Shown here: piece after piece, positions 1 to 16,292 of the stretch
How positions within the stretch are numbered: the first letter of the stretch is position 1
Layout: each line of letters starts with the position of its first letter
Assembly (NCBI GenBank): GCA_963712745.1
Contig: CAVQJC010000017.1
Location: 388,190-452,189 of the forward strand
Direction: 5' to 3'
Length of the DNA: 64,000 bases
Source: an uncultured Chloroflexia bacterium
GTDB taxonomy: Bacteria > Chloroflexota > Limnocylindria > Limnocylindrales > CSP1-4
Translations under genes and position numbers: made by a program
The notes under the pieces: generated by a model
The model's database searches: none
Told to the model about the DNA's origin: nothing
The model's input: the letters and a program-made list of their open reading frames with translations, nothing else

Positions 1-415
1 CCCGGTGACCGCGTATGCCGTCGATCTGGCCGTCGACTACATGGCCCAGGTAGCGGCCGGTGGCCACGACTTCCGTGGGGCAGGGGCCAACTTCCTGCTT
101 CACGCCTGGACGAGCGCCGACGAGAATGCAGCACTACGAGAGATGCTCCTCCGCCGCAGGCGACAGGCCAGCGCCTTGGCGCGCTCGGTCATCGATGGTG
201 CCATCTCCCGTGGTGAGCTCCCGGCAGACCTCGACCCCGACGGGCTCGCCCTCGGACTGGTCTCGATGTTTGACGGGCTCTTCCTCCAGCGCGCGGAGCG
301 CGGCCAGTCCTTCTCGGTCGAAGATGCCCGTCGGCAGGCCCGCGCGGTCATCGAAGCGATGCTCCGCTCACCCCAGACAGCCGACGGTTCGGAGAACGCA
401 GGTGGCCAGCCATGA
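1..415 (+). CDS. TetR/AcrR-family transcriptional regulator, C-terminal part (5' end outside window)
   Basis: ORF open from the window edge; TetR_C-like motif 'GAISRGELPADLDPDGLALGLVSMFDGL'. Confidence 0.7.
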   Translation, partial: PVTAYAVDLAVDYMAQVAAGGHDFRGAGANFLLHAWTSADENAALREMLLRRRRQASALARSVIDGAISRGELPADLDPDGLALGLVSMFDGLFLQRAERGQSFSVEDARRQARAVIEAMLRSPQTADGSENAGGQP

Positions 416-870
416 CCACCCAGCCCATCTCGGTAGCGGCCCGGACCACCACGCCCGGCGCCACCATCATCTCCGTCTCCCTGGTGGTCGCCTACGCCAT
501 CCTGCTGGCGACCATGCTCGAACGTGGGCACGCCGCCGGAGGCGAGATCTGGGGGCTCATCGCCACGGTCGTGGGTCTGGCCGCCAGCATCCTCACGCTT
601 GTCGTGCTCCACTCGAGTCGCCGAGCCGTTCGTGTGGCGGTCGTGGTTCTCTGGATGTTCGTGCTGTCGCTGGGCGTGACGGGCACGCTCGACCACGCCG
701 CCCCCGTGCTCGTCGAGTACCTCGATCAGCGGCCACGACCGCCCCTCGTACCGCTCGTCTATGCGGTCTTCGGCATGGTCGGTATCTGGGTCGTCGTGGC
801 GAACCGACGGAGCCAGCGACGGGCGGGGCGACTCCCGCGAGAGCAAGAGCACGAGCAGGAGCACGAGTGA
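412..870 (+). CDS. Hypothetical membrane protein (about 4 TM helices)
   Basis: ATGA overlap with the upstream stop; GGTGG upstream; hydrophobic segments. Confidence 0.65.
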   Translation: MTTQPISVAARTTTPGATIISVSLVVAYAILLATMLERGHAAGGEIWGLIATVVGLAASILTLVVLHSSRRAVRVAVVVLWMFVLSLGVTGTLDHAAPVLVEYLDQRPRPPLVPLVYAVFGMVGIWVVVANRRSQRRAGRLPREQEHEQEHE

Positions 871-1703
871 TGAGGGCCACTGTCCACACCCGCGCGGAAC
901 TCCGCGCCTTCGCGCTCCTCGTGGGCCTGTGCTCCCTTCCGTTCTGGATCGCTGGCGCCGTGTCGGGCGCGACGGTCACGAGCACGCTGTCCATCGCGTC
1001 CCTCATGGTGGTGGCCCCGTTCATCGCGGGCGTCGCACTCACCTGGCGTTGGGTAGGCGCTCGCGGCGTCCGCTCACTGCTGCTGCGGGCCATCGACCCG
1101 CGCCTGCCTCGCGGTGCCGGCTGGTACCTGCCCGTGCTCCTGCTCATGCCCGCAGCACTCGTGCTGGAGGTCGCGGCGATCCGCTTCAGCGGGCGTATGG
1201 TGCCGGCTTTCGAGGTCGTGCCGGCCGCGGTCCTTGCAGATCTTGCGGTCTTCTGGGTGGCGGCGACCCTGGAGGAAGTGGGGTGGACCGGCTTCGCGAC
1301 CGACCGCCTCCAGGCAGGCAGGAGCGCCCTGGCTTCCGCCGTCGTCCTTGGTGTCGGCTGGGCCCTGTGGCACGTGCCCGCGATGCTGGACATGCCGGCC
1401 GGGCACTCGTGGTCCTGGATCATGCTCCAGTGCGCCAACCTTGTCGCGATGCGCGTTCTCATCGTCTGGGTCTACAACGCGTCGGGACGCAGCCTGTTCG
1501 CGGCCATCGCCTTCCACGCCGTGTACAACGTCTGCACCATCACCCTGTTCCCGGTGTACGGCTCACACTATGACCCCCTCGTGGCCGGCATCGTGCTCGC
1601 GGCCATCGCGATCGCCGTCATCCGGGTCTGGACCCCGGCCACACTCTCGACCTTGCGTGGGCGAACAGCCTCGCCCGCGGCCGCGTCGGGCGTCGGAAGT
1701 TAG
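870..1703 (+). CDS. CPBP (CAAX/Abi) family intramembrane glutamic endopeptidase
   Basis: EEVGWTG, WALWHVP and AIAFHAVYN motifs; start overlaps the upstream stop (TGATG). Confidence 0.85.
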   Translation: MRATVHTRAELRAFALLVGLCSLPFWIAGAVSGATVTSTLSIASLMVVAPFIAGVALTWRWVGARGVRSLLLRAIDPRLPRGAGWYLPVLLLMPAALVLEVAAIRFSGRMVPAFEVVPAAVLADLAVFWVAATLEEVGWTGFATDRLQAGRSALASAVVLGVGWALWHVPAMLDMPAGHSWSWIMLQCANLVAMRVLIVWVYNASGRSLFAAIAFHAVYNVCTITLFPVYGSHYDPLVAGIVLAAIAIAVIRVWTPATLSTLRGRTASPAAASGVGS

Positions 1704-1764
1704 CCAAGAGGCACAAGAGCGGGGCCTGGGCCCTGGTCCGGTGCCCGGCTCGCCGGGCCCCGCA

Positions 1765-2244
1765 TCAGCCAGGGTCCTTGGCCAGACCCTCCACGACCTC
1801 TCCGCCCAGTGCGGTCAAGATGCCTGGCGGACCCAGCACCTTTCGGTCCCGACTGCCACCGCCGAGGATGATTCGCGGCCGCTCCATGACCCGCGCGTCC
1901 ACCCACAGCGGCAGCTCCGGCGGCAGGCCGATCGGGGTCACGCCGCCGATGGCCATGCCCGTGAGCTGCTGGGTCTCCTCGGCGCCGGCGAACGACGCCT
2001 TGCGCGCCTCGAGTCGCTTCCTGACCGTCTTGTTGACATCCAGCCTGGTCGTGGCCAGCACGACGCAGGCCGCGTACACCGGCGGGTCAGCCTTCCCCAC
2101 CACCAGGATCGTGTTGGCCGAGTCCTCGAGCTCGAAACCATAGGCCGCGCAGAACTCAGCCGTGTCGGCCAGGGCTGGGTCGCACGCGAAGAGCTCGTAT
2201 TCGACAGCCAGCGACTCCAGCCGCTCCACGAGTTGGTCGCTCAC
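1765..2244 (-). CDS. YbaK/EbsC (aminoacyl-tRNA editing) family protein
   Basis: TGMAIGGVTPIG and ILGGGSR motifs; GTG start with AGGAG RBS. Confidence 0.85.
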   Translation of the reverse strand: MSDQLVERLESLAVEYELFACDPALADTAEFCAAYGFELEDSANTILVVGKADPPVYAACVVLATTRLDVNKTVRKRLEARKASFAGAEETQQLTGMAIGGVTPIGLPPELPLWVDARVMERPRIILGGGSRDRKVLGPPGILTALGGEVVEGLAKDPG

Positions 2245-2438
2245 AGCCCTGCTTGCTCCTCCGTCTTCGCCAGGTGCCGATGGTACGGCCTCTCGCGAGG
2301 TCTGCTCGCCTGGTGAGCGATGACGACGCAGGCGAGCCTCGGGCGTGATGGCCATGGTCGCATGATGTGATGTTCCACTGACCCTGGGAACTACAGCCTC
2401 GACGATCCTGCCATGAGCCTGGACGTTCCTGACCTGTT

Positions 2439-2475
2439 GTGATAGCGTTACCACCGAGCGTGATAACGATACCAC
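2439..2475 (+). promoter_or_regulatory. Two LacI-type operator palindromes (2439-2454 GTGATAGCGTTACCAC; 2460-2475 GTGATAACGATACCAC)
   Basis: 16-bp imperfect palindromes with a central CG, starts 21 bp apart, upstream of an operon containing a LacI-family gene. Confidence 0.75.
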
Positions 2476-2525
2476 CCAACAGCGCTCCGACGTACCGCCG
2501 CAAGCTCGACCAGAGAGGACGACCG

Positions 2526-3587
2526 ATGACGCAGCCCTTCACCGACACCATCCCCGGCACCGAGGTGCAGCGGGGCATGAACAAGGACGACCTGATCGTC
2601 ATCGCCGGCGCCGGCGGGTTCATCGCCGGCTCGCTCACCCGCTACTTCGCCGAGCAGGGCTACACCAACATCCGGGCTATCGACCGCAAGCCGCTGCCCG
2701 ACTGGTACCTGCGCGTGCCGGGCGTCGAGTCCCTCTCAGCCGACCTCAGCGTGGAGGCCAACGCCATCGAGGCGGTCAAGGGTGCCACCGAGGTCTACAA
2801 CCTTGCGGCCGACATGGGTGGCATGGGCTTCATCGAGAACTTCCGCGTCGAATGCCTGCGCAGCATCCTCGTCAACACGCACCTGACCGAGGCCTCCTAC
2901 CGCGCCGGTGTCCAGCGCTACTTCTTCAGCTCGTCGGCCTGCGCCTACAACACCGACCTGCAGAAGAACCCCGACGTCATCGCGCTCAAGGAGTCCGACG
3001 CCTACCCGGCCATGGCCGAGCGCGGCTACGGCTGGGAGAAGCTCATCAGCGAGATGTTCTGCGAGGAGTACTGGGCGGAGCGACAGCTTGAGACGCACAT
3101 CGCCCGCTTCCACAACATCTACGGCCCCAACGGCACCTGGTTCGGCGGTCGCGAGAAGGCCCCCGCGGCGATGTGCCGCAAGGTGCTTGAGGCCCAGGAC
3201 AGCGGCGACATGCGCATCGAGATCTGGGGCGACGGCGAGCAGACCCGCTCGTTCTGCTACATCGACGACTGCCTCCACGGCATCGACCGCATCATGCACA
3301 GCCCCGAGCTCATCGCCACGCCCATCAACCTCGGCTCCAGCGAGCTGGTCTCGATCAACAAGCTGGTCGACATCGTCGAGGACATCGCGGACGTGAAGCT
3401 CGAGCGCGAGTACGACCTCGACGCGCCCAAGGGCGTGGCCGGGCGCAACAGCGATAACACCTTCATCCAGGAGGTCCTCGGCTGGGAGCCCAACACGCCG
3501 CTGCGCGAAGGCATGGCCGAGACCTACGCCTGGATCAGCGAGCAATTCGCCGCCCGCAAGGCCGGCAAGCGCGTGGTCGAGGGCTAG
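2526..3587 (+). CDS. GDP-mannose 3,5-epimerase-like NAD-dependent epimerase
   Basis: GAGGFIA, LAADMGGMGFI, SSAC, YGWEK, GGREKAPAA, WGDGEQTRSF and GRNSDN motifs typical of GME; AGAGGA RBS. Confidence 0.88.
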   Translation: MTQPFTDTIPGTEVQRGMNKDDLIVIAGAGGFIAGSLTRYFAEQGYTNIRAIDRKPLPDWYLRVPGVESLSADLSVEANAIEAVKGATEVYNLAADMGGMGFIENFRVECLRSILVNTHLTEASYRAGVQRYFFSSSACAYNTDLQKNPDVIALKESDAYPAMAERGYGWEKLISEMFCEEYWAERQLETHIARFHNIYGPNGTWFGGREKAPAAMCRKVLEAQDSGDMRIEIWGDGEQTRSFCYIDDCLHGIDRIMHSPELIATPINLGSSELVSINKLVDIVEDIADVKLEREYDLDAPKGVAGRNSDNTFIQEVLGWEPNTPLREGMAETYAWISEQFAARKAGKRVVEG

Positions 3588-3591
3588 CCTC

Positions 3592-4404
3592 ATGACCGCG
3601 GAAACCGCGGCCACCACTGCGCCGGCGGCCCTGCAGGAGGCGATCGGGCACTTCCCCTACCGGCTGCAGATGGCTGGCGGCTGGATCGACCAGCCCTTCG
3701 TCTCCGAGCGTCTTCCCGAACCGCCCGGCTCGATGGTGGTGGTCTCGCTCCACCCCACCACTCGTTACATGGACCGCAGCGGCATGGCCACCGGGACACG
3801 GGTCGTGGCTCGTGGTCTGTGGGGCGACGAGCTCCCGGACGATCGCCCTGCCGAGGTGCTCGTTCGCGAGCTCTACCAGGCCGAGAACGAGGGCCAGGCC
3901 GCCCCGTCGGGCTCGCAGGACATGTGCGGTCTCATCTACCCGGGCATCAGCCGGCTCGACTACGACGCCTCGGTGGAAGGTGGCTGGTTCCCGGCGCACG
4001 TCGAGTCCACCTCCGATCCCGGGGTCGTGGCCTGGTTGGAGCAGGTCATCCACCTCGTCCCGGTCGGCCCTCGCCCGGTCGGCTACGACCCCCTGGGCGT
4101 GAAGAACCTCGACCCCGCCTGGGTCGCCCGACTGGGCCACAGCGGCCGGGCCTGCTATGAGGCCATCGTGGCCATGGACCTCGAGGCGCTGGGCGAGTCG
4201 CTCAACGAGTGCTCGCGCGCCTGGGCTGCGATCTTGCCGCAGGTCTTCGAGCACCCGGCTATCAACATCGACCTGCACGGGCTGCTCGCCGGCTATGCAG
4301 CCGCCTACCCCGGGGCCATGTACTCCGGCTGCGGCGGCGGCTACGTCATCGTCGCCTCGGACACCCCGCCGCCCGGATCGGCTCGCATCGCGGTGCGTGC
4401 GTGA
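3592..4404 (+). CDS. GHMP-family sugar kinase (Fkp kinase domain / HddA-like)
   Basis: PYRLQMAGGWID (cf. P.RID.AGGW.D), RSGMATG, SGSQD and SGCGGGY motifs. Confidence 0.7.
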   Translation: MTAETAATTAPAALQEAIGHFPYRLQMAGGWIDQPFVSERLPEPPGSMVVVSLHPTTRYMDRSGMATGTRVVARGLWGDELPDDRPAEVLVRELYQAENEGQAAPSGSQDMCGLIYPGISRLDYDASVEGGWFPAHVESTSDPGVVAWLEQVIHLVPVGPRPVGYDPLGVKNLDPAWVARLGHSGRACYEAIVAMDLEALGESLNECSRAWAAILPQVFEHPAINIDLHGLLAGYAAAYPGAMYSGCGGGYVIVASDTPPPGSARIAVRA

Positions 4405-5207
4405 CCGCGCGCGTCGTCGTCGAGCACAGCCTCGACGACCTTCGCTCGGACGACGTGCGGTTTCTGCAGGAGGCCGCGCGCCATGGGCCGGTCCACGTGC
4501 GCATCCCGGACGACGAGCTGATGCAGGAGCTCAGCGGGGGGCTCCCCAAGTTCCCCGTGTCCGAGCGCCTCTTCCTGGCCGAGTCGCTGCGCTGGGTATC
4601 GAGCGCCGAGGCCGTGAGCCGGCCGCTTGCCGACGCGCCGGATGCGTCCATGGCCGCCGACTCCGTGCTCGTCGCGAGGGGAGAGGACTCGGTCCTCCGC
4701 ACCGCGGCGGCCGCAGCGGGCGTGCCCGTCATCGCGGTGTGGCCCGATGATCGGGCGGGCTTCCCCGTCATCGAGCCCTATCCGGTCCCGTCCGGCACGC
4801 CCGGCGTCATCGTCACCGGCTGCTTCGACTGGCTCCACTCCGGACACATCCGCTTCTTCATGGACGCGGCTGCGTACGGCGCGCTCACCGTGGTGGTGGG
4901 CAGCGATCGCAACGTGGCCCTGCTTAAGGGCGAGGGTCATCCGCTTCAGCGCGAGGAGGAGCGGCGTTACATGGTCGGCTCGACGGCACCGGTCTATCTC
5001 TGCCTGGTGTCCTCGGGCTCAGGCTGGATGGACGCCGAGCCCGAGATCGACCTCATCCGACCGACCTACTACGTCGTCAACGAGGACGGCGACCAGCCGG
5101 AGAAGCGGGAGTTCTGCCGGGCGCACGGGATCGAGTACGTGGTGCTCGAACGCGTGCCGCACGCGGGGCTGCCAGCCCGCTCGAGCACAGACCTGAGAGG
5201 CTTCTAG
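4401..5207 (+). CDS. Cytidylyltransferase-like (HIGH motif, RfaE domain II-like) nucleotidyltransferase; degenerate N-terminal copy plus intact C-terminal domain
   Basis: GCFDWLHSGH, GSDRNVALLKG and RSST motifs; GTGA overlap with the kinase stop. Confidence 0.8.
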   Translation: MTARVVVEHSLDDLRSDDVRFLQEAARHGPVHVRIPDDELMQELSGGLPKFPVSERLFLAESLRWVSSAEAVSRPLADAPDASMAADSVLVARGEDSVLRTAAAAAGVPVIAVWPDDRAGFPVIEPYPVPSGTPGVIVTGCFDWLHSGHIRFFMDAAAYGALTVVVGSDRNVALLKGEGHPLQREEERRYMVGSTAPVYLCLVSSGSGWMDAEPEIDLIRPTYYVVNEDGDQPEKREFCRAHGIEYVVLERVPHAGLPARSSTDLRGF

Positions 5208-5219
5208 GAGGAGGCAGCG

Positions 5220-6218
5220 ATGCCGACCCTGACCGATGTCGCCAGGCGCGCAGGCGTCTCGCCGATGACCGTCTCGCGCGTGGTGAACGGCTCGGGCCCC
5301 GTCAGCCCCGAGTTGCGGACACGCGTGGAGCAGGCCGTGGCCGAGACGGGATACGTGCCCAACACGGTCGCACGCAACCTGCGTGTCCGCCGCACCGACA
5401 CCATCGCGCTGGTGATGCCGGACATGACCAACCCCTTCTTCACGGCGCTGGCGCAGGGCGTCGAGACAGCCGCGCGTGAGGCCGGTATCTCGCTGCTGCT
5501 GGCCAACACCGATCAACGCGAGGACGAGGAGGAGCGACTGGTGCGGGCGCTGCTGCAGCGGCAGATCGACGGCCTGCTCATCATCCCCGCAGGCTCCTGT
5601 ATCGAGACCGTCCGGCTTTGCCGCGACCAGGGCGTGCCCCTGGTCGTGGTCGACCGCCGCCCGGAACGCCCTGGTGCAGACGTCGTCCGTGCCGACGCCG
5701 AGGGCGGCGCGCTCGAGCTCGGGCGACTCATGGTCGGGCTGGGCCATCGGTACGCCGCGGTCCTGACCGGCCCACCGACCGTGCCCACTGCCGTGGATCG
5801 CGCCGCCGGCTTCGCCCGAGCCTTCGAGGACGCCGGGCTGCCGGGACCGCTGGTCATCCACGGCGAGTTCACCATCGACAGCGGCCACGAGATGGCGGGC
5901 GAGGCCATGAGCGAGTCACCAAGGCCGACGGCGCTCTTCGCGGCCAACAACTTCATCGCCATCGGCGTGCAGCACGGCCTGGAGGAGCTCGGCCTGCGTG
6001 TGCCGGAGGACGTGGCTCTGGTGGGCATGGACGACCTGCCCAGCGCGATGGTCACGTTCCCGTTCCTGACCGTGGTAGCCCAGCCGGCCGTCGAGATGGG
6101 CCGACGTGCCGTGGGTCTCCTGCTCGATCGCCTGGCCCATCCCGATCGCCCGGCCGACGAGGTGGTACTCCCGACGGAGCTCGTCATCCGTCGCTCCAGC
6201 GGCGGACGCATCGCTTGA
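5220..6218 (+). CDS. LacI-family transcriptional regulator
   Basis: TLTDVARRAGVSPMTVSRVVN HTH; PEDVALVGMDD; GGAGGAGG RBS. Confidence 0.95.
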   Translation: MPTLTDVARRAGVSPMTVSRVVNGSGPVSPELRTRVEQAVAETGYVPNTVARNLRVRRTDTIALVMPDMTNPFFTALAQGVETAAREAGISLLLANTDQREDEEERLVRALLQRQIDGLLIIPAGSCIETVRLCRDQGVPLVVVDRRPERPGADVVRADAEGGALELGRLMVGLGHRYAAVLTGPPTVPTAVDRAAGFARAFEDAGLPGPLVIHGEFTIDSGHEMAGEAMSESPRPTALFAANNFIAIGVQHGLEELGLRVPEDVALVGMDDLPSAMVTFPFLTVVAQPAVEMGRRAVGLLLDRLAHPDRPADEVVLPTELVIRRSSGGRIA

Positions 6219-6247
6219 CCGGCCCGACCCGTCAGACTGGTCGGAGC

Positions 6248-7468
6248 ATGACCCCGCGAACCGGCTACGTGACCCACCTCGAGGCCGCCATCGACGGCAC
6301 CGTGCTGCCCGCGGGCAGCATCCAGACCACCCACCAGGGCCGGCCACTGTGGGTGCGCTACGACCTCGAAGCGCTGCGAGCGACGGTCGACCGCGACGCC
6401 TGGCGCGAGCGGCCGGCCGGGATGTGGCGCTACGCCGAGCTGCTGCCGTTGGCCGATCAGGACCATCGGGTCTCGCTGGGTGAGACGACGACGCCCCTGC
6501 TCGAAGCGCCACACCTGGCCGCGCACCTTGGGCTGCGCGACCTGCTCATCAAGGACGAGTCGCGCCTGCCCACCGGCTCCTTCAAGGCGCGGGGCATGGC
6601 CGTGGCGGTCTCGATGGCGCGCGCGCTGGGCATCGAGCGCCTGGCCGCGCCCACTGCCGGCAACGCCGGGGGAGCCCTTGCCGCGTACGCCGCCCGTGCC
6701 GGCATGGAGGCATACGTGTTCATGCCTGCCGACACGCCCATGGTCAACCGCTACGAGGCGGCCCTCTACGGCGCCCACGCCTACCTCGTCGACGGCTTCA
6801 TCAACGACTGCGGAGCCATCGTTCGCGACGGCGTCGAGCCGATGGGCTGGTTCGACATGAGCACGCTCAAGGAGCCGTATCGCATCGAGGGCAAGAAGAC
6901 GATGGGCCTGGAGCTGGCCGACCAGCTCGACTGGCGACTGCCCGACGTCGTGCTCTATCCCACCGGCGGCGGCACCGGGCTCATCGGCATGTGGAAGGCC
7001 TTTGCCGAGCTCGACGCGCTGGGCTGGCTTGACGCGCCGAAGAGGCCGCGGCTCCTCTCGGTCCAGTCGGACGGCTGCTCGCCCATCGCAGATGCCTGGG
7101 CGGCCGGCGAGCGATTTGCCGCACCGGCCATCGACCCCCAGACGGTCGCGAGCGGGATCCGCGTTCCCGTCGCTGTCGGCGACTTCATGATCCTCGATGC
7201 CGTACGCGAGTCGGGTGGTGCCGCGCTCACGGCGGAGGAGGGGAGGCTGGTCGAGTGGATGCGCCTGGCCAACCGGCTCGAGGGCATCGCGCTCTGCCCG
7301 GAGGCCGCCGCCTGCGTGGGCGTGCTCGAGGGGCTCGTCCGCAGCGGCCAGGTCGACCCCGACGAGCAGGTCGTCATCTTCAACACGGGTGCGGCCCAGA
7401 AGTACGTCGAGGCCATGTCCGCCGAACTCCCCACGGTGGAATCGCCGGTGGACTACCAGGCGCTCTGA
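6248..7468 (+). CDS. thrC: Threonine synthase (fold type II PLP enzyme)
   Basis: SLGETTTPL, PTGSFKARG (PLP lysine), TAGNAG, EGKKTMGLE and YPTGGGTG motifs. Confidence 0.85.
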   Translation: MTPRTGYVTHLEAAIDGTVLPAGSIQTTHQGRPLWVRYDLEALRATVDRDAWRERPAGMWRYAELLPLADQDHRVSLGETTTPLLEAPHLAAHLGLRDLLIKDESRLPTGSFKARGMAVAVSMARALGIERLAAPTAGNAGGALAAYAARAGMEAYVFMPADTPMVNRYEAALYGAHAYLVDGFINDCGAIVRDGVEPMGWFDMSTLKEPYRIEGKKTMGLELADQLDWRLPDVVLYPTGGGTGLIGMWKAFAELDALGWLDAPKRPRLLSVQSDGCSPIADAWAAGERFAAPAIDPQTVASGIRVPVAVGDFMILDAVRESGGAALTAEEGRLVEWMRLANRLEGIALCPEAAACVGVLEGLVRSGQVDPDEQVVIFNTGAAQKYVEAMSAELPTVESPVDYQAL

Positions 7469-7477
7469 GCGCGAACG

Positions 7478-7975
7478 CTAGCCTGAGCGGCCCACGCGCT
7501 CGGGATGCCAGAAACCCTGGTGCACCACGGCTGCCTCCGGCAGGTCAGCGGGTCCCTCGACCGCGATCACCCGCTGGCCGGCGGCCAGCACGGTCCGCGC
7601 GGGCAGATGCATGGTGGGATTCTCGGCGTCGGCCCCGGTGAGGGCCCCGAGCTGCGCTTCGGCAAGGGCATAGACGACGCGCCCGATGCCGCTCCAGTAG
7701 ATGGCTCCGGAGCACATCGCGCAGGGCTCGGTGCTGCTGTAGAGCGTGGTCGGGGCCAGCTCGGCCTCGGTGAACGAGCGAGAGGCCAGGCGCACCAGGT
7801 TGAGCTCCGCGTGCGCGGTGACGTCGCGGTCGACGGTGACGGTGTTGCCGGCTTCGAGCAGGACGTCGCCGCTGGCGTTGGCGAGAACGGCTCCGAAGGG
7901 ATGGTTGCCGACCTCGCGGGCCCGGCGCGCCACGTCGATGGCCAGCCGCAGCAGGCGCAGGTCGGTCTCGGTCAT
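7478..7975 (-). CDS. Nucleoside/nucleobase deaminase (cytidine deaminase-like)
   Basis: NHPFGA, HAE and EPCAMC zinc motifs. Confidence 0.88.
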   Translation of the reverse strand: MTETDLRLLRLAIDVARRAREVGNHPFGAVLANASGDVLLEAGNTVTVDRDVTAHAELNLVRLASRSFTEAELAPTTLYSSTEPCAMCSGAIYWSGIGRVVYALAEAQLGALTGADAENPTMHLPARTVLAAGQRVIAVEGPADLPEAAVVHQGFWHPERVGRSG

Positions 7976-8781
7976 GCCGGCCCTTTCCAGACGCGCTCGG
8001 GCCGTTCGGTCAGGCCCAGCTCCTCGAGCACGTCGATGATCTCGTAGTCGGAGCGGTACCAGGCGCGGATATTGGCCGAACCGGTCTCCGACAGGTCGGT
8101 GGGCGTGTCGTCCGGAGCGCGATTCGCGCTCCGGGGGTCGGCCGGCAGCCGGCAACGATCGGGCAGCCCGATGAGCGCGCGCAGCCGCTCGAAATCATCA
8201 CTGAGCGTCTCCTGCCAGCCGACCAGCAGGATCTGGCCTCGCCGCTTTCGCAGTAAAGCGGGCGAGCCGAGCCAGACCGCGAAGGTCGTGCGCACGTGGC
8301 GGATGTCGTGCATCGCGGCAACAGCTGCGCGTCGTTCGGCCGCGTCGTCCGATGACAGGGCCACCGCCAGCTTGTCGGGCGTGTCGAAGCGCCGGAAGGC
8401 TATTCGCTCCTTCTTCGACCAGGGCGAATCGTGGCGCGGCTTGCCCTGTCGCAACCGGGACATGAAGCCCGACACGTAGCGACCGACCGGGTCGCGCAGC
8501 ACGAAGACCACGTCATCCCGCGGCGGGATGCGCCGGAGGTCGATGTGGTGCGAATGGGTCAGGATGCGCGTGCCGGGCGCCACATCCTGGTAGACGCTGC
8601 GGACGCCACGGATGTCACCACGGATGGCGTCCTTCACGGCCGAGCCGCCGGTCTTGCCGATGTGGATGATGTGGATCACTCGCTGACGCCGCAGCCGGCC
8701 CTCGATCGACTGGATCCACGGCTTCAGCAGGCGCTTGCGCATGCGCAGCCACTGCCGCAGTCGCCGCAGTCGTCGCTTCAC
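7972..8781 (-). CDS. Sulfotransferase family 2-like protein (start uncertain: 8742 or 8781)
   Basis: HIGKTGGS 5'-PAPS loop and LRDPVGRYVSG 3'-PB motif. Confidence 0.7.
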   Translation of the reverse strand: MKRRLRRLRQWLRMRKRLLKPWIQSIEGRLRRQRVIHIIHIGKTGGSAVKDAIRGDIRGVRSVYQDVAPGTRILTHSHHIDLRRIPPRDDVVFVLRDPVGRYVSGFMSRLRQGKPRHDSPWSKKERIAFRRFDTPDKLAVALSSDDAAERRAAVAAMHDIRHVRTTFAVWLGSPALLRKRRGQILLVGWQETLSDDFERLRALIGLPDRCRLPADPRSANRAPDDTPTDLSETGSANIRAWYRSDYEIIDVLEELGLTERPERVWKGPA

Positions 8782-8875
8782 GGGTTGGCTGATCTGGTCG
8801 TTCGCACGGTCGCCCGATTCTAGTGCTGCGCGCGTCAGCGGCGGTCCTGCCATGCTTCGAAGGCAAGGAGGGGAC

Positions 8876-9682
8876 ATGCCGACACGATCCATCGAGCTCA
8901 TCCGACACCCGTTGCGGGTCCGTACGCTCGAGGTTCGTACCGTCAAGCACCCTGGCCCGCTGTACGGCCTCATCACGCTCAGCGGTGACGACCTTGCCGA
9001 CTTCGAGACGCCCAGCCCGACAGACCACGTCGGGGTGATCCCGCCGCTGCCCTCGGGCGAGCTCGTGTTGCCGGAGGTGGCCGACGGGCGGCTGCGCTGG
9101 CCGGCCGGGGAGCGGCCGCCGATGCGCGAGTACACCGTGCGGCGTTTCGACCGCGAGGCGCGCGAGCTGGACGTGCGCATCCTGCTCCACGGCAACGGCC
9201 CCCTCGCCCGCTGGGCAGCCCAGGCCGCGCCCGGCGACAGGGTCGGGGTGGTGGGGCCGCGCGTGTCGAAGGTCATGCCCGGGGGCTTCGCCAACTACCT
9301 GCTGGTGGGCGATCTCACGGCCGTCCCGGCCATCGCGCGCTGGCTGAGCGTGCTGCCCGGGGGCGCGATGGCCCAGGTACTCATCGCCGCGCGCTCCGAG
9401 GAGGACGTCGTCGAGCTCAAGTGCGCCGAGCCCATCTCCGTGCTCTGGCTGACCGAGGCGCTGATGCCGGAGGCCGACTGGCTGCCACCCGCGGTCGCCG
9501 CCACGAGCCTCCACTCGCGCGACACGTTCGCCTGGGCTGCCGGCGAGGCCGTGGCCATGCGCGAGGTGCGCCGGGTCCTGCTCGAGCAGCACGGCTTGCC
9601 CTCGGAGAACGTCAAGGTCACCGGCTACTGGCGCCGGGACGAACCGGACTTCGACTACGACGCCCCGCTCGTCGCAGGATGA
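8876..9682 (+). CDS. Siderophore-interacting protein (ViuB/YqjH family)
   Basis: MREYTVRRFD, HGNGP, GDLTAVPAI, AAGE and TGYWR motifs; AAGGAGG RBS. Confidence 0.9.
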   Translation: MPTRSIELIRHPLRVRTLEVRTVKHPGPLYGLITLSGDDLADFETPSPTDHVGVIPPLPSGELVLPEVADGRLRWPAGERPPMREYTVRRFDREARELDVRILLHGNGPLARWAAQAAPGDRVGVVGPRVSKVMPGGFANYLLVGDLTAVPAIARWLSVLPGGAMAQVLIAARSEEDVVELKCAEPISVLWLTEALMPEADWLPPAVAATSLHSRDTFAWAAGEAVAMREVRRVLLEQHGLPSENVKVTGYWRRDEPDFDYDAPLVAG

Positions 9683-9692
9683 CCCAGGGCCG

Positions 9693-10841
9693 CTATCCGG
9701 GCGCCGACACGCGGTAGATGATGCCGGCCTTGTCGTCCGAGACGTAGAGCGCGCCGTCCGCGCCGACGATGACGCCGGCTGGACGGCCAGTGGCATCGCC
9801 GGTCTCGCGGTCGAGGAAGCCGCCCACCAGGACCTCTGGCGGGCCGCTGGGACCGTCGTCCCAGGGCAACCACAACACCTCGTAGCCGACCTTCTCGGAT
9901 CGGTTCCAGGAGCCGTGGAAGGCGATGACCGCGCCGTCTTGCCAGAAGGTGATGCCCAGCGGGGCCGCGTGCGCCTGGAACGTCGCCACGGGCGGCGTCA
10001 CGCCGTCGCAGCCGACCAGACCATTGTCGGGATCGGGTTCGTCCCCGAGGTCGGGGTCGACGATGTCGCCCGCGTGGCATCGCGGCCAGCCGGCGTGGGC
10101 CCCGTCAACGAGCCGATAGAGCGTCTCAGGCGGGATGTCGTCGCCCATGAGGTCGCGGCCATTGTTCGTGGCCCACGCCTCGCCGGTGGCAGGATCGACG
10201 GCCACGCCGACCGCGTTGCGCAGGCCGCGCATCAGGACACGCCATGTCCCACCGTCCGCCGGAGCGGTGATGACGCTGGCGCGCTCCTCGTCCTCCTCCC
10301 AGCATACGTTGCAGGTGGAGCCGACGCTGACGAGCAACGAGCCGTCGGGCATGACGGCGACCGTGCGCGTCGAGTGTCCGCCACCACCCGAGTACTCGAG
10401 CATGGTCTCCCTGGCCTGCTCGTGCAGGTCTTCATCGAGCTCGACCCCGAAGAGCGAGCCGCTGCCGGCCACCAGCAGCCTGCCGTCGTCGGCGAAAGCC
10501 AGCGAGTGGGCCGAGTCGTAGCCCTCGCCCACCAGGATGTGCTCGTCAGCGGCGCCGTCGCCATCGCGGTCTGGCAGGGCCACCACCCGGTCCGCGCCCT
10601 GCTCAGCCACGAACAGGGTGCCATCGTCGGCCAGCGCCATGAAGCGCGGATGAGCGAGCCCGCTCGCGAACACGCTGGAACGGTAGTCATCCGGCAGCAC
10701 GAGCTCGGTCTCGCCCGGCAGACCGCGGTCGAAGCTCAGGCCCATGGCCTGCAGGATGGGCTCGCGGAACGTCCACGCTCCCACCATCAGGAAGCTGATG
10801 ACGAAGACCGCGAACAGCCCCAGGCGGATGATCCGTTTCAT
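9693..10841 (-). CDS. PQQ-dependent sugar (glucose/sorbosone) dehydrogenase, beta-propeller with N-terminal anchor
   Basis: GHSTR, SVGSTCN, GLRNAVG, AHAAPLG, HGSWNR and YVSDD motifs; GGAGG RBS. Confidence 0.88.
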   Translation of the reverse strand: MKRIIRLGLFAVFVISFLMVGAWTFREPILQAMGLSFDRGLPGETELVLPDDYRSSVFASGLAHPRFMALADDGTLFVAEQGADRVVALPDRDGDGAADEHILVGEGYDSAHSLAFADDGRLLVAGSGSLFGVELDEDLHEQARETMLEYSGGGGHSTRTVAVMPDGSLLVSVGSTCNVCWEEDEERASVITAPADGGTWRVLMRGLRNAVGVAVDPATGEAWATNNGRDLMGDDIPPETLYRLVDGAHAGWPRCHAGDIVDPDLGDEPDPDNGLVGCDGVTPPVATFQAHAAPLGITFWQDGAVIAFHGSWNRSEKVGYEVLWLPWDDGPSGPPEVLVGGFLDRETGDATGRPAGVIVGADGALYVSDDKAGIIYRVSAPG

Positions 10842-10866
10842 GTCACCTCCCGCGGCCGTCGCTGCC

Positions 10867-11190
10867 TTAGCCACCCCGCTTCAGCAGCGTCAGGAGAAGC
10901 ACCAGTGGTGTCTGGGCCACCACGCTGTGGGGAGTGTTGGCAGGCATGTGGATCCACGTGCCCGGCCCTCCCTCGACGGTCTCGTCGTCCAGGGTGATGG
11001 TGGCATGGCCCTCGACCACTTCCAGTGTCACCGGCACCGGCGCGGTGTGATCCGACAGCTGCTGACCGGTCGCGAAGGAGAAGTGTACGACGCGGACGTC
11101 GTCGTCATTGTAGATAGCGCGGCTAACGATACCGTCGGCCGGCGTTTCCACCGGCGATCTCAGGTCGACGATGGTGCAGTCGGAACTCAT
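10867..11190 (-). CDS. Cupin domain protein
   Basis: LSDHTAP and HMPANTPHSV cupin motifs; AGGAGAGG RBS. Confidence 0.85.
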   Translation of the reverse strand: MSSDCTIVDLRSPVETPADGIVSRAIYNDDDVRVVHFSFATGQQLSDHTAPVPVTLEVVEGHATITLDDETVEGGPGTWIHMPANTPHSVVAQTPLVLLLTLLKRGG

Positions 11191-11225
11191 GGTCCTCTCC
11201 TGTCTGGCGGGCTGTCCCTCGAAGC

Positions 11226-11553
11226 CCTAGCTCCTTCACGAACCAGTGTCTGGCGAACGGTTCGTCGTTGAACCGAGGGAACTCGCGGTAGCCATGACCA
11301 CGGTACATGGCCAGGGCAGGGGTCAGCTGATGCCAGGGTCGAGCAGCTTGAGCGCGCCACAACCGACCGGGCCAACGTCGTCACGGAAGACGAGCACGAG
11401 CCCGAGGCGGCGGGTGAGCTCATCGAGACCCAGTGGCAGCGCCTCATCGACGACGTATCCGAAGCGCTCGCCGAGCTCGGTGCAATACCGCTCGACGCAG
11501 CACAGAACGTCTTCGCTGTCGGCGGGCTCCTCGCTGGTCACGTAGTCGGCCAT
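11226..11553 (-). pseudogene. GNAT acetyltransferase pseudogene (internal deletion/frameshift)
   Basis: N-part 'PVGCGALK...' stops at 11323; C-part 'LAMYRGHGYREFPRFNDEPFARHWFVKEL' is in another frame; the central acetyl-CoA-binding motif is missing. Confidence 0.65.
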
Positions 11554-11592
11554 GCGACGATGAGCAACGCCTCATCGCCGTACCATCGGCGG

Positions 11593-13521: not shown

Positions 13522-13533
13522 CGCGACGAAGAT

Positions 13534-13566
13534 CGACGACCGCCCGAGGAGGTCGGGCGGTCGTCG
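13534..13566. terminator. Hairpin between convergent genes (probable bidirectional terminator)
   Basis: Perfect 14-bp stem CGACGACCGCCCGA / TCGGGCGGTCGTCG with a 5-nt loop. Confidence 0.7.
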
Positions 13567-13594
13567 TGCAAGAGGGAGGGAGGGGAATGGTCGT

Positions 13595-14248: not shown

Positions 14249-14427
14249 ATCGTCATTGACCTCACTTGCAGCTCGACGGCACGCCTGGGGCATGCCGGCC
14301 GGCCGGATGGCGCGACGGCAAGAACGGTGGAAGTCGGGCGTATGTCTCGACCGAGGGCGGTGTAAGGGCGGCGTAAGCCTGGTGCGACACGCCCGGAAGC
14401 GGGGAACTGGCCAGGAGTCGGAGCCCG

Positions 14428-14436
14428 TGGTATAGT
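14428..14436 (+). promoter_or_regulatory. Extended -10 promoter (TGgTATAGT) of tRNA-fMet
   Basis: TGn-TAnnnT motif ending 5 nt before tRNA position 1. Confidence 0.65.
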
Positions 14437-14441
14437 CCCTG

Positions 14442-14516: not shown

Positions 14517-14533
14517 AAGATTCCTGACGTGAG

Positions 14534-16287: not shown

Positions 16288-16292
16288 AGGCT

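What the first reader, a model, noticed from the sequence alone, without database searches (positions are those of the whole stretch)
2526..6218. Candidate undescribed Leloir-style pathway for L-galactose/L-gulose: kinase, nucleotidyltransferase and GDP-mannose 3,5-epimerase under LacI control
Seen: a tightly packed operon of a GME with all catalytic motifs (SSAC, YGWEK, GREKAPAA), a GHMP kinase resembling the Fkp/HddA anomeric kinases, a HIGH-type nucleotidyltransferase and a LacI gene. No glycosyltransferase, flippase or polysaccharide genes are nearby. Established: GME interconverts GDP-D-mannose with GDP-L-galactose and GDP-L-gulose (plant Smirnoff-Wheeler ascorbate route), and kinase-transferase-epimerase is the logic of the Leloir and fucose salvage pathways. 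The bacterial L-galactose catabolism I know of is oxidative, via a dehydrogenase. Inference: free L-hexose -> L-hexose-1-P -> (G)DP-L-hexose -> GDP-D-mannose, i.e. the ascorbate route run backwards to salvage or catabolise a rare L-sugar.
Basis: partly seen in the sequence, partly recalled or inferred. Interest (0 to 1): 0.8.

Follow-up and report, generated by a model that had tools for sequence, protein, structure and literature searches.

The report
Predicted GDP-linked L-galactose salvage operon
Four tightly packed genes (a plant-type GDP-mannose 3,5-epimerase, a small fucokinase-like sugar kinase, a nucleotide-attaching enzyme and their own repressor) most likely turn the rare sugar L-galactose into ordinary GDP-mannose, a route that I did not find described for bacteria.

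Summary
In detail: window 2526-6218 holds GME, a 270-aa GHMP-fold kinase, a tandem HIGH-type nucleotidyltransferase and LacI. They are separated by 4 nt, a 4-nt overlap and 12 nt, and two LacI-type operators lie upstream.

The kinase matches no Pfam, NCBIfam or PDB sequence. Its model is a GHMP anomeric sugar kinase (Z 22.2). Its profile is closest to the L-fucokinase of FKP (E 4.2e-15), and six of seven fucose-contacting residues are kept.

GME-kinase-transferase is conserved in order across named phyla (GME adjacent 69 of 77). It recurs in a second clade with a fused transferase-kinase (GME upstream 50 of 53).

The recurrent neighbour is a GH29 whose best solved relative is the exo-alpha-L-galactosidase BpGH29 (603 against 370 bits). 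Other neighbours are mutarotases, ManC, LacI/AraC regulators and further glycosidases. Glycosyltransferases are rare.

Best reading (about 0.6): a Leloir-like, non-oxidative route from L-galactose to GDP-mannose. No activity has been assayed. The nucleotide (GTP or ATP/CTP) is open.

This scan noted the same operon on four other genomes with the same reading. I found no paper describing it.

The parts
2439..2454 (.). Operator O1, GTGATAGCGTTACCAC, an imperfect palindrome with a central CG (LacI-family type)
   Evidence: Read. The related consensus TGGTAACGTTACCA (up to 3 changes, CG kept) lies within -330..+30 of GME in 22 of 35 loci that have LacI within 7 kb and in 0 of 34 loci without it. 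In 200 shuffles the mean was 0.18 and the maximum 3. In the 4.2-Mb assembly the only sites that fit the degenerate pattern without a mismatch are O1 and O2.
2460..2475 (.). Operator O2, GTGATAACGATACCAC, 21 bp centre to centre from O1
   Evidence: Binding by the LacI protein is inferred, not shown.
2526..3587 (+). GDP-mannose 3,5-epimerase homologue (GME, extended SDR), 353 aa
   Evidence: E 1.8e-79 to Arabidopsis GME structures 2c59/2c54/2c5a. The next family in PDB is MoeE5 at 2.6e-22. The NAD motif, Ser/Tyr/Lys triad, Cys/Lys acid-base pair and Arg are all present (residue roles from the PMC8787198 passages).
3592..4404 (+). Small divergent GHMP-fold anomeric sugar kinase (KIN), 270 aa; predicted L-galactose (L-fucose-type) 1-kinase
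   Evidence: No Pfam, NCBIfam or PDB sequence hit. AF2 model pLDDT 93. VIA Z 22.2 to WcbL heptokinase, 20.4 to galactokinase, 19.9 to FKP fucokinase. The family profile is best to FKP fucokinase at E 4.2e-15. FKP sugar contacts R592/W599/D601/G759/Q761/D762 correspond to R24/W31/D33/G107/Q109/D110.
4401..5207 (+). Tandem cytidylyltransferase-fold (HIGH-type) nucleotidyltransferase (NT), 268 aa. The N-terminal copy has lost HxGH. The C-terminal copy has HSGH and RSSTDLR. Predicted L-galactose-1-phosphate nucleotidyltransferase.
   Evidence: PF01467 E 1.3e-9. rfaE_dom_II scores 50.9 bits, below its 181.5 cut-off. Alignment of 29 orthologues. AF2 pLDDT 94. The whole chain is best to human ECT 4xsv, E 1.3e-12, TMq 0.74. 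Single-domain matches are HldC, TagD and Fom1.
5220..6218 (+). LacI-family repressor, 332 aa
   Evidence: Pfam LacI HTH (E 1.4e-19) plus Peripla_BP_1/3/4. The best NCBIfam model is RbsR, below its cut-off. A LacI gene lies within 6 kb in 34 of 81 loci, 32 of them Chloroflexota-labelled.

Best explanation
This is a repressor-controlled operon for a non-oxidative, nucleotide-sugar route that feeds free L-galactose into mannose metabolism. The steps below are all inferred from sequence. (1) KIN phosphorylates the anomeric hydroxyl of beta-L-galactose with ATP, giving beta-L-galactose-1-phosphate. (2) NT joins this to a nucleoside monophosphate. GTP is the most likely donor, giving GDP-L-galactose plus PPi. 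(3) GME epimerises C3 and C5, giving GDP-D-mannose. The equilibrium of characterised GMEs favours this direction. (4) Unlinked housekeeping enzymes then take over. ManC run backwards, or a NUDIX hydrolase, yields mannose-1-phosphate, which goes through phosphomannomutase and phosphomannose isomerase to fructose-6-phosphate. Alternatively, GDP-mannose is used directly. (5) LacI binds the two operators 51-87 nt upstream of the GME start and is released by the sugar or one of its phosphorylated forms. In other genomes the module is joined to a BpGH29-type exo-alpha-L-galactosidase that frees the sugar. It is also joined to a FucU- or RhaM-type mutarotase that would supply the anomer the kinase needs. 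This genome carries only the regulated core.
For: Gene identities: GME has every catalytic residue. KIN has the GHMP anomeric-kinase fold. Its profile is closest to FKP L-fucokinase, ahead of HddA-type heptose kinases (4.2e-15 against 1.3e-8). Six of the seven FKP residues that contact L-fucose are kept, and they are invariant or at least 90% conserved in 26 family members. FKP itself accepts L-galactose (passages of PMC11982464). NT has an intact HxGH and an RxSTxLR motif, and its nearest family is a sugar-1-phosphate nucleotidyltransferase.
Linkage: GME lies directly beside KIN in 69 of 77 loci with enough upstream DNA. NT lies beside KIN in 62 of 73. The loci come from Chloroflexota, Planctomycetota, Verrucomicrobiota, Acidobacteriota, Latescibacterota and others, as labelled in record titles. 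A GME was found elsewhere in 5 of 5 tested genomes where it is not adjacent. In a second clade with a fused CT-KIN protein, GME is directly upstream in 50 of 53 loci. Those GMEs form their own clade (43 against 64, SH-aLRT 100, quick tree).
Substrate: a GH29 lies within 2.6 kb downstream in 37 of 58 fused-clade loci and in 13 loci of the split set. A profile of 25 of these GH29s scores 603 bits to the exo-alpha-L-galactosidase BpGH29 (7ljj/7lnp) against 370 for the best other fucosidase (single proteins).
Catabolic setting: LacI 34 of 81, AraC 5 of 81, ManC 12, FucI 7, FucU clusters in 10 and 5 loci, and sulfatases. In the fused clade: GDSL esterase 16, GH27 12, ManC 10, GH31 8, RhaM 7, MFS 7.
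GDP: ManC-type guanylyltransferase genes are neighbours, and in L056 one stands in the place of NT.
Direction: a characterised bacterial GME gives about 15 parts GDP-L-Gal and 5 parts GDP-L-Gul per 100 GDP-Man (PMC6678494 passage).
Downstream enzymes exist in this genome: ManC, three PGM/PMM and a type I PMI.
Regulation: the operator statistics are.
Against: No enzyme of the KIN or NT family has been assayed, so every substrate is inferred.
The nearest relatives of NT use ATP (RfaE domain II/HldC) or CTP (ECT, TagD, Fom1). From memory I know of no guanylyltransferase with this fold.
This genome shows no GH29 (the assembly is 84.55% complete). No sugar transporter was found near the operon or under a matching operator. 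Its only FucU/RbsD gene sits in an uninformative place.
NT was not found with this query in 3 of 5 genomes that have KIN and GME without an adjacent NT.
Most loci of the split set have unrelated housekeeping neighbours.
A few loci do have glycosyltransferases nearby: GT21 in 2 loci and WecG in 1, plus GT41 and a TMEM260-like protein.
FKP prefers L-fucose about 100-fold over L-galactose, so conserved contacts alone do not separate the two sugars.
The only characterised bacterial GME (Methylacidiphilum) lies beside a glycosyltransferase and was read as biosynthetic.
Of the 281 representative neighbour ORFs, 89 were not scanned as a batch.
Confidence: 0.6

Rival explanations
1. Same pathway logic but a different nucleotide. 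NT makes ADP- or CDP-L-galactose. The GME homologue epimerises that nucleotide sugar to ADP- or CDP-mannose. NT itself, run in reverse, or a NUDIX hydrolase releases mannose-1-phosphate, so no ManC is needed.
For: NT's best family model is the heptose-1-phosphate adenylyltransferase domain (rfaE_dom_II, E 1.4e-13). Its best solved relatives are HldC, ECT and TagD. ManC is adjacent in only 12 of 81 and 11 of 80 loci. A NUDIX gene follows NT in 3 Verrucomicrobiota loci, with a weak NudE match.
Against: The epimerase aligns full-length with plant GDP-mannose 3,5-epimerase at E 1.8e-79. ManC-type Man-1-P guanylyltransferase genes are the recurrent nucleotidyltransferase neighbours, and one replaces NT in L056. 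No ADP- or CDP-hexose 3,5-epimerase of this subfamily came up in the papers read.
Confidence: 0.15
2. The physiological sugar is L-fucose. KIN plus NT are a split, non-orthologous equivalent of FKP that salvages L-fucose to GDP-L-fucose for fucosylated glycans. The epimerase either balances GDP-hexose pools or makes GDP-6-deoxy sugars such as GDP-D-rhamnose.
For: The KIN profile is closest to FKP fucokinase and keeps its fucose contacts. FucI and FucU that pass NCBI's L-fucose equivalog cut-offs are neighbours in some loci. FKP prefers L-fucose.
Against: The tightest partner is GME, whose known substrates carry a 6-hydroxyl. The linked GH29s are nearest to the L-galactose-specific BpGH29, not to fucosidases. 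Fucosyltransferase or other glycosyltransferase genes are rare near the module. LacI/AraC control and the glycosidases speak for catabolism. No exit from GDP-D-rhamnose into central metabolism is known to me (recalled).
Confidence: 0.1
3. Biosynthetic module. It makes GDP-L-galactose or GDP-L-gulose from GDP-mannose for a cell-envelope glycan, lipid or natural product. KIN and NT recycle the freed sugar.
For: The bacterial GMEs discussed in the literature are read as biosynthetic: bleomycin BlmG, A201A, and Methylacidiphilum GME beside a glycosyltransferase (PMC6678494 passages). The proteins are very conserved (KIN 56-82%, GME 68-94% identical across phyla). Many loci sit among housekeeping genes.
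Against: A biosynthetic route needs only ManC plus GME, not a kinase and a second transferase. Glycosyltransferases are adjacent in only a handful of loci. Repressors and glycoside hydrolases recur. The distribution is patchy (3 of 251 genomes of the window's own phylum), as for an accessory module.
Confidence: 0.07
4. Another sugar with the same local shape, such as D-arabinopyranose, L-gulose or a heptose, is the substrate.
For: FKP also accepts D-arabinose. The top structural match of KIN is a heptose kinase (Z 22.2 against 19.9 for FKP; rows within about 2 Z units). GME also forms GDP-L-gulose.
Against: The sequence profile ranks FKP well above the heptose kinases. The stacking Trp and the Asp/Gln contacts of FKP are kept. 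No heptose-pathway genes (GmhA/GmhB) were seen among the recurrent neighbours. The linked glycosidase type points to L-galactose.
Confidence: 0.05

Closest known systems
Leloir / Isselbacher pathway for D-galactose (GalK, GalT or a UDP-sugar pyrophosphorylase, GalE)
   Same: The logic is the same: a GHMP anomeric kinase, then a nucleotide sugar, then an SDR epimerase that turns the rare configuration into a common one, at a net cost of one ATP. It is often under a LacI-family repressor (GalR/GalS).
   Different: The sugar is predicted to be L-galactose and the product a mannose nucleotide. The epimerase acts on C3 and C5, not C4. No HIT-family GalT-type transferase is present. The activating enzyme is a tandem cytidylyltransferase-fold protein.
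[quoted passage not shown]
   Same: It is the closest characterised relative of KIN by profile (E 4.2e-15). Six of seven sugar contacts are conserved. It couples a kinase to a nucleotidyltransferase. FKP converts L-galactose to GDP-L-galactose in vitro.
   Different: KIN is 270 aa against about 360 aa for the FKP kinase part, and it is invisible to Pfam GHMP models. The transferase has a different fold (HIGH/CT fold, not the NTP_transferase plus beta-helix of FKP). It is a separate gene here and is fused in the opposite order (CT then KIN) in the second clade. FKP serves glycan synthesis and is not linked to GME.
Plant Smirnoff-Wheeler route (GME, then VTC2 GDP-L-galactose phosphorylase) and characterised bacterial GME (MfGM35E)
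   Same: The epimerase family and catalytic residues are the same. The intermediates GDP-D-mannose, GDP-L-galactose and L-galactose-1-phosphate are the same.
   Different: The predicted flux runs the other way. L-Gal-1-P is made by a kinase and consumed by a nucleotidyltransferase, not produced by a HIT-family phosphorylase. No L-galactose dehydrogenase or lactone oxidase is linked. MfGM35E lies beside a glycosyltransferase.
ADP-heptose pathway (HldE kinase + adenylyltransferase domain / HldC, then HldD epimerase)
   Same: It is the only well-known pathway, to my recall, that uses a cytidylyltransferase-fold enzyme on a sugar-1-phosphate followed by an SDR epimerase. NT's best family model is rfaE_dom_II.
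   Different: The HldE kinase is of the ribokinase fold and acts on a heptose 7-phosphate. NT scores far below the equivalog cut-off (50.9 against 181.5 bits) and is a tandem pseudo-dimer like ECT. The epimerase here is GME-type, not HldD-type (heptose_epim E 7.4e-11).
Oxidative L-galactose catabolism (Phocaeicola vulgatus; Luteolibacter LG18 lgu genes)
   Same: It has the same presumed nutrient. In gut and marine bacteria the sugar is freed by a BpGH29-type alpha-L-galactosidase.
   Different: That route goes through L-galactonate and D-tagaturonate with dehydrogenases and uses no nucleotide sugar (PMC12632266 passages). None of its enzymes is in this operon.

Membership tests
GDP-mannose 3,5-epimerase (extended SDR, GM35E) | Glycine-rich NAD-binding motif at the N-terminus | tested here: met
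   GAGGFIAG at residues 28-35, aligned with the plant motif.
GDP-mannose 3,5-epimerase (extended SDR, GM35E) | Ser/Tyr/Lys triad plus the Cys-Lys acid/base pair and the Cys-acidifying Arg (At S143, Y174, K178, C145, K217, R306; PMC8787198 passage) | tested here: met
   SSAC 136-139, YGWEK 168-172, GREKAPAA 208-215 and GRNSDN 306-311 align with FYASSAC, YGLEK, GREKAPAA and GRNSDN of 2c59. Lys, not His, is at the base position, so this is not a GMER.
GDP-mannose 3,5-epimerase (extended SDR, GM35E) | Interconverts GDP-D-mannose and GDP-L-galactose; specific for GDP | not testable with these tools
   Inferred only from E 1.8e-79 to the plant enzyme. I could not map the guanine-contacting residues.
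GHMP kinase superfamily | Two-domain GHMP fold | tested here: met
   Model pLDDT 93. Foldseek E 4.5e-8 to 4usk. VIA Z 22.2 (rmsd 2.9, 238 aligned) to WcbL, 20.4 to galactokinase, 19.9 to FKP.
GHMP kinase superfamily | Motif II phosphate-binding loop (Pfam GHMP_kinases_N) and motif III (GAGGGG, GHMP_kinases_C) | tested here: inconclusive
   No Pfam GHMP model matches KIN at E 0.01. A conserved S-G-M-A-T-G/S-T-R loop (63-70) precedes a helix in the model. SGCGGGY (245-251) aligns with GAGGGGY of FKP. GHMP_kinases_C is detected only in 4 of 16 distant relatives.
L-fucokinase (FKP C-terminal domain type) | Residues contacting L-fucose and catalysis: Arg592, Trp599, Asp601, Thr602, Gly759, Gln761, Asp762 (PMC11982464) | tested here: met
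   R24, W31, D33, G107, Q109 and D110 are kept; Thr602 is Gln34 (alignment; conservation). That is six of seven.
L-fucokinase (FKP C-terminal domain type) | Fused to an NTP_transferase-type GDP-fucose pyrophosphorylase; about 950-aa protein | tested here: not met
   KIN is a 270-aa stand-alone protein. Its partner has the cytidylyltransferase fold.
Cytidylyltransferase-like (HIGH-motif) nucleotidyltransferases, PF01467 | HxGH motif, a C-terminal RTxGISTT-like motif and the Rossmann-like fold | tested here: met
   HSGH 146-149 and RSSTDLR 260-266 are invariant or nearly so in 29 orthologues. PF01467 scores 38.8 bits, above its 21-bit cut-off. Foldseek 4xsv E 1.3e-12. The N-terminal copy lacks HxGH (HSLDDLRSDD).
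RfaE domain II / HldC heptose-1-phosphate adenylyltransferase (TIGR02199) | Score above the equivalog cut-off | tested here: not met
   50.9 bits against a cut-off of 181.5.
LacI/GalR family repressor | N-terminal LacI HTH plus a periplasmic-binding-protein-like effector domain; palindromic operator with a central CG | tested here: met
   PF00356 70 bits and PF13377 124.6 bits. O1 and O2 and their distribution. DNA binding itself is not testable here.
Leloir pathway | GalT-type (HIT family) hexose-1-phosphate uridylyltransferase and a C4 epimerase | tested here: not met
   No HIT-family gene is in the operon. The epimerase is of the 3,5 type. It works like the pathway but is not a member.

The most novel reading that the evidence does not exclude
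This is a third, so far undescribed way for bacteria to use L-galactose: an 'L-Leloir' route through GDP-L-galactose to GDP-mannose. It is carried by a mobile three-gene module found in at least six named phyla. It rests on two uncharacterised enzyme families. One is a minimal fucokinase-like GHMP kinase with more than 7,800 database relatives, of which the 120 best listed carry no Pfam domain and no name beyond 'hypothetical protein'. The other would be the first sugar-1-phosphate guanylyltransferase of the cytidylyltransferase fold. It would also mean that the main job of GDP-mannose 3,5-epimerase in bacteria is catabolic, the reverse of its role in plant vitamin C synthesis.
Probability: 0.5. 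Interest if true: 0.8.

Novelty: new variant of a known kind. Interest (0 to 1): 0.72.

Why it matters
L-galactose occurs in red-algal porphyran and agar and in plant cell-wall glycans. The only bacterial routes in the papers I read are oxidative.

A nucleotide-sugar route would give a function to a large, highly conserved family of 'hypothetical proteins'. There are 7,808 hits at E 0.001 among the 8,000 candidates scored, and none of the 120 best listed has a Pfam domain.

It would also give a physiological role to most bacterial GME homologues and to the exo-alpha-L-galactosidase subgroup of GH29 outside gut Bacteroides.

It would supply three enzymes that together make GDP-L-galactose and L-galactose-1-phosphate from cheap precursors. 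The GME literature names these compounds as expensive or unavailable.

It is directly testable with three soluble-looking proteins and with cultured carriers.

Tried and rejected
- Pfam, NCBIfam and phmmer against PDB on KIN gave nothing. The ESM Atlas gave only 'hypothetical protein' clusters.
- The first attempt at search for related loci, with 26 diverse sequences, had no stretch conserved enough. I repeated it with 9 sequences.
- LacI regulon hunt: outside the operon only 11 one-mismatch sites were found. By my ORF check 8 of them lie inside coding frames. No transporter or glycosidase target emerged.
- Own-genome search for GH29 found nothing (the assembly is 84.55% complete, so this is no proof of absence). 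The single FucU/RbsD gene (C15) lies among BtpA, luciferase-like and unrelated genes.
- The promoter/terminator scan of 2100-7700 gave 0 promoter-like sites and 1 terminator-like site, against 0.9 expected. Rfam found no family in 1-9000.
- A random sample of the window's own phylum gave too few carriers (3 of 251) for a co-occurrence test with GH29, so I dropped that test.
- Large unannotated ORFs next to the module: 14 were scanned and 12 have no Pfam family. The other two are a glutamate synthase and a protein with a weak heparinase II/III match. Many are probably wrong-strand ORFs in GC-rich DNA.
- The apparent KIN-NT fusion in L020 is a frameshifted reading, not a fusion.
- RNA evidence: contigs from three runs labelled metatranscriptomic carry exact pieces of the operon, but contigs cannot show transcription and DNA carry-over is possible. 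I do not count it.
- Complex prediction for KIN with NT was never accepted because the queue was full. Nothing can be said about binding.
- The careful tree search did not finish, and the KIN tree was not built within the time limit.
- Of the 281 representative neighbour ORFs of the split set, the third batch of 89 was not scanned as a batch. I scanned a few of them later.
- I could not settle the nucleotide specificity of NT or GME by computation.

Full report
**1. What is there**

The window is G+C-rich (about 0.65-0.72 in its first 14 kb). It lies at the end of contig C17 of a 4.2-Mb, 84.55%-complete assembly. On the + strand between 2526 and 6218 lie four genes:
- GME, 2526-3587;
- a 270-aa protein that I call KIN, 3592-4404;
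- a 268-aa nucleotidyltransferase, NT, 4401-5207;
- LacI, 5220-6218.

The gaps between them are 4 nt, a 4-nt GTGA overlap, and 12 nt behind a GGAGGAGG ribosome site. thrC starts 29 nt after lacI, at 6248. It follows lacI only in 8 close relatives, so I do not count it as part of the module. No glycosyltransferase, transporter or polysaccharide gene was found in 1-17000. No Rfam family was found in 1-9000.

**2. The epimerase**

GME aligns over residues 23-346 with the Arabidopsis GDP-mannose 3,5-epimerase structures at E 1.8e-79. The next family in PDB scores 2.6e-22. It keeps the NAD motif, the Ser/Tyr/Lys triad, the Cys/Lys acid-base pair and the Arg. A review names these as the features that separate GM35E from GDP-fucose synthase and GalE (PMC8787198, passages seen; positions). 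Membership in the GME family is met on every feature that sequence can test. Activity and GDP specificity are inferred.

**3. The kinase**

KIN has no Pfam or NCBIfam family and no PDB match by phmmer at E 10. Yet 7,808 of the 8,000 candidates scored are relatives at E 0.001. The best 120 are 71-100% identical, none has a Pfam domain, and they are named, where named at all, 'hypothetical protein'. A search of 1.84 billion representatives gave 614 hits at E 0.001.

The AlphaFold model, built from 26 sequences, has pLDDT 93. It is a GHMP kinase. The top structural matches are all kinases of the anomeric hydroxyl:
- WcbL heptokinase, Z 22.2 (rmsd 2.9, 238 residues aligned);
- Pyrococcus galactokinase, Z 20.4;
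- the fucokinase part of FKP, Z 19.9.

A profile of the family finds FKP fucokinase first (E 4.2e-15). HddA-type heptose kinases follow (1.3e-8, 1.5e-6, 5e-5), then mevalonate kinases.

The 2025 FKP structure paper lists the residues that hold L-fucose (passages seen, PMC11982464):
- Asp762 (general base) and Arg592 at O1;
- Asp601 and Thr602 at O3;
- Asp601 and Gln761 at O4;
- Gly759;
- Trp599, stacked on C4-C5-C6.

In the alignment these correspond to D110, R24, D33, Q34, Q109, G107 and W31 of KIN. So six of seven are identical, and in the 26-sequence alignment they are invariant or at least 90% conserved. The same paper reports that FKP is strict for the C2-C4 configuration and loose at C5. 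It accepts L-fucose, L-galactose and D-arabinose. KIN is therefore best read as a 1-kinase for an L-galacto-configured pyranose.

**4. The transferase**

NT is two cytidylyltransferase-fold domains in tandem:
- The C-terminal one has HSGH and RSSTDLR. These motifs are invariant or nearly so in 29 orthologues.
- The N-terminal one has lost HxGH.

The whole chain superposes best on human ethanolamine-phosphate cytidylyltransferase, which is also a tandem (E 1.3e-12, TMq 0.74). The single catalytic domain is nearest to HldC / RfaE domain II, the heptose-1-phosphate adenylyltransferase. It scores far below that family's cut-off (50.9 against 181.5 bits). So it is a sugar-phosphate nucleotidyltransferase of a new subfamily. 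Its nucleotide cannot be read from sequence.

**5. Inheritance as a unit**

I studied the best 80 loci together with the window. By record titles the loci are:

| Phylum or group | Loci |
|---|---|
| Chloroflexota | 40 |
| Planctomycetota | 12 |
| Verrucomicrobiota | 8 |
| Acidobacteriota | 8 |
| Latescibacterota | 8 |
| Armatimonadota | 1 |
| Hydrogenedentes | 1 |
| Unplaced | 2 |

Findings in this split set:
- GME lies directly upstream of KIN in 69 of 77 loci with enough DNA.
- NT lies directly downstream in 62 of 73.
- Full-length identities to the window's proteins are 68-94% for GME and 56-82% for KIN.
- In 5 of 5 tested genomes where GME is not adjacent, a GME at 57-76% identity lies elsewhere.
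- In 5 tested genomes without an adjacent NT, an NT-like gene lies elsewhere in 2 and was not found in 3.
- In L056 a ManC-type guanylyltransferase stands in NT's place.

In a sample of the window's own phylum only 3 of 251 genomes carry KIN, all in one family. The module is therefore rare, patchy and very conserved across phyla. That is the pattern of a transferred accessory module.

**6. A second, independent clade**

Distant relatives of KIN are often fused to a single cytidylyltransferase domain. CTP_transf_like was found in 11 of 16 scanned. One more is fused to an L-rhamnose mutarotase domain, one to a GT2 and one to a PNP_UDP_1 domain.

I fetched 80 metagenome loci around one such fusion, about 380 aa and 41-49% identical to KIN. 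The counts come:
- GME lies directly upstream on the same strand in 50 of 53 loci with enough DNA.
- A GH29 lies within 2.6 kb downstream on the same strand in 37 of 58.
- A LacI-type gene is present in 28 of 80.
- A ManC-type gene is present in 11 of 80.

In a quick tree of the 107 GMEs that have a KIN beside them, the 43 from fused-type loci form one clade against the 64 others (SH-aLRT 100; the careful search did not finish). So the epimerase has diverged together with its kinase partner.

**7. Which sugar**

The recurrent non-core neighbour is a GH29. It occurs in 13 loci of the split set, of which 10 of 81 meet the stricter count. It occurs in 40-43 of the 80 fused-type loci. These GH29s are not generic fucosidases:

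| Query | Score to exo-alpha-L-galactosidase (7ljj/7lk7/7lnp) | Best other GH29 |
|---|---|---|
| GH29 of L081 | E 3.9e-140 | E 3.8e-80 |
| GH29 of L092 | E 1.4e-91 | E 1.5e-55 |
| Profile of 25 neighbour GH29s | 603 bits | 370 bits |

That enzyme, BpGH29 of Bacteroides plebeius, is named an exo-alpha-L-galactosidase in PMC11189522 (passage). A 2026 preprint reports two more GH29s that release L-galactose from desulfated porphyran oligosaccharides (10.64898/2026.05.19.726164, passages).

Other recurrent neighbours are catabolic.

In the split set:
- FucU mutarotase, in clusters of 10 and 5 loci. One representative passes NCBI's L-fucose mutarotase cut-off. The stricter count found only 2.
- L-fucose isomerase in 7 loci.
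- ManC in 12 loci.
- AraC in 5 loci.
- A ribose-type ABC transporter, GH43, GH31, melibiase and sulfatases.

In the fused clade:
- GDSL esterase in 16 loci;
- GH27 in 12;
- ManC in 10;
- GH31 in 8;
- RhaM mutarotase in 7;
- MFS transporter in 7.

Glycosyltransferases appeared in only a handful of split-set loci. They appeared in none of the fused-clade clusters present in 5 or more loci. [quoted passage not shown]

**8. Mechanism proposed**

The steps are: L-Gal, then (KIN, ATP) beta-L-Gal-1-P, then (NT, GTP?) GDP-L-Gal, then (GME) GDP-Man.

- The last step is downhill. A characterised bacterial GME yields about 15 parts GDP-L-Gal and 5 parts GDP-L-Gul from 100 parts GDP-Man (PMC6678494, passage).
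- Exit to central metabolism needs ManC in reverse or a NUDIX hydrolase, then PMM and PMI. This genome has one ManC with a PGM/PMM 2.2 kb away, two more PGM/PMM genes, and a type I PMI.
- All steps are inferred. None is shown.

**9. Regulation**

Two 16-nt imperfect palindromes with a central CG lie 51-87 nt upstream of the GME start (O1 2439-2454, O2 2460-2475). Their centres are 21 bp apart.
- The consensus TGGTAACGTTACCA occurs upstream of GME in 22 of 35 loci with a LacI gene within 7 kb. It occurs in 0 of 34 loci without one. In 200 shuffles the mean was 0.18 and the maximum 3.
- In this genome O1 and O2 are the only sites that fit the pattern without a mismatch.
- Of the 11 one-mismatch sites, 8 lie inside coding frames by my ORF check.

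So this LacI seems to control only its own operon. The inducer is unknown.

**10. What speaks against the reading**

- The family's nearest transferases use ATP or CTP.
- This genome shows no GH29 and no linked transporter.
- Many split-set loci sit among unrelated genes.
- FKP prefers fucose 100-fold.
- NT was not found with this query in three genomes.
- The characterised Methylacidiphilum GME lies beside a glycosyltransferase and was read as biosynthetic.
- 89 of the 281 representative neighbour ORFs were not scanned as a batch.

The rival readings are a different nucleotide, L-fucose salvage, biosynthesis, or another sugar.

**11. Known or new**

The papers I could search are open-access PubMed Central and bioRxiv. 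They describe oxidative L-galactose routes only (PMC12632266 passages; listings).
- Searches for L-galactokinase, L-galactose kinase, GDP-L-galactose pyrophosphorylase and similar terms gave one unrelated paper.
- A search for 'Leloir-like' together with L-galactose gave none.
- A search combining L-galactose, GHMP, GDP-mannose and fucokinase gave nothing that describes this module.
- Subscription journals and supplements were not searched.

Earlier agents of this scan noted the same operon on four other genomes and read it the same way. I had filed my own reading before I saw those notes. They are not independent evidence.

- the link of the neighbouring GH29s to the exo-alpha-L-galactosidase subgroup;
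- the residue-by-residue match to the FKP fucose site;
- the operator statistics;
- the second, fused clade with its own GME lineage.

**12. Verdict**

I file it as a new variant of a known kind: Leloir and fucose-salvage logic, built from GME plus two uncharacterised enzyme subfamilies and applied to L-galactose. My confidence in the main reading is about 0.6, and I rate interest at 0.72.

Noticed in passing
window 6248-7468 (+): A threonine synthase gene (NCBIfam PRK08197, 553 bits against a 303-bit cut-off) starts 29 nt after the lacI stop on the same strand. It follows lacI in 8 close relatives only. It could be co-transcribed, but I see no functional link.
   Followed up: partly
window 7972-9294 (-): A 440-aa open frame with no Pfam family. 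It partly overlaps the SIP/FAD_binding_9 gene on the other strand (8735-9682), so its upstream half may not be coding.
   Followed up: no
G000 contig C17:381564-385787 (2.4-6.6 kb before the window's start): A 1,407-aa open frame. Its opposite strand shows two 241-aa frames, at 382973-383698 and 383699-384424, that begin with the same residues. This points to tandem repeats of about 726 nt in a very large protein gene.
   Followed up: no
L020:7938-9638: KIN and NT read as one 566-aa frame. The last 50 or so residues of KIN are replaced by an out-of-frame Arg/Gly-rich stretch, so this is a frameshift (an assembly error or a broken gene), not a fusion.
   Followed up: yes
L056:8850-12060: In this Anaerolineaceae-labelled locus KIN is followed by a ManC-type guanylyltransferase instead of NT. 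That gene is split over two overlapping frames. A FucU mutarotase and a sulfatase come next. L069 also has a sulfatase two genes after KIN.
   Followed up: partly
L171-L173 (genomes of L081 and L046): Some genomes seem to carry both the split KIN and a fused CT-KIN-sized paralogue. The evidence is 382- and 386-aa frames whose parts match the C-terminal domain of NT.
   Followed up: no
library proteins P0176, P0197, P0221, P0194: Distant KIN relatives are fused to other modules. P0176 has L-rhamnose mutarotase + CT + KIN. P0197 has GT2 + KIN. P0221 has a PNP_UDP_1 phosphorylase-superfamily domain + CT + KIN. P0194 has a DXD glycosyltransferase domain + KIN. These suggest a wider set of salvage enzymes for other sugars.
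   Followed up: no
L033:3176-12952 (Anaerolinea thermolimosa IMO-1): A cultured organism carries LacI-GH29-GME-KIN-NT on one strand. A 1,029-aa protein with no Pfam family follows.
   Followed up: partly
window 2000-7600 in coded runs X1-X20: Near-identical DNA turns up in contigs of estuary, sediment and soil metagenomes from several studies. Exact pieces of 98-270 nt turn up in three runs labelled metatranscriptomic. Contigs cannot show transcription.
   Followed up: partly
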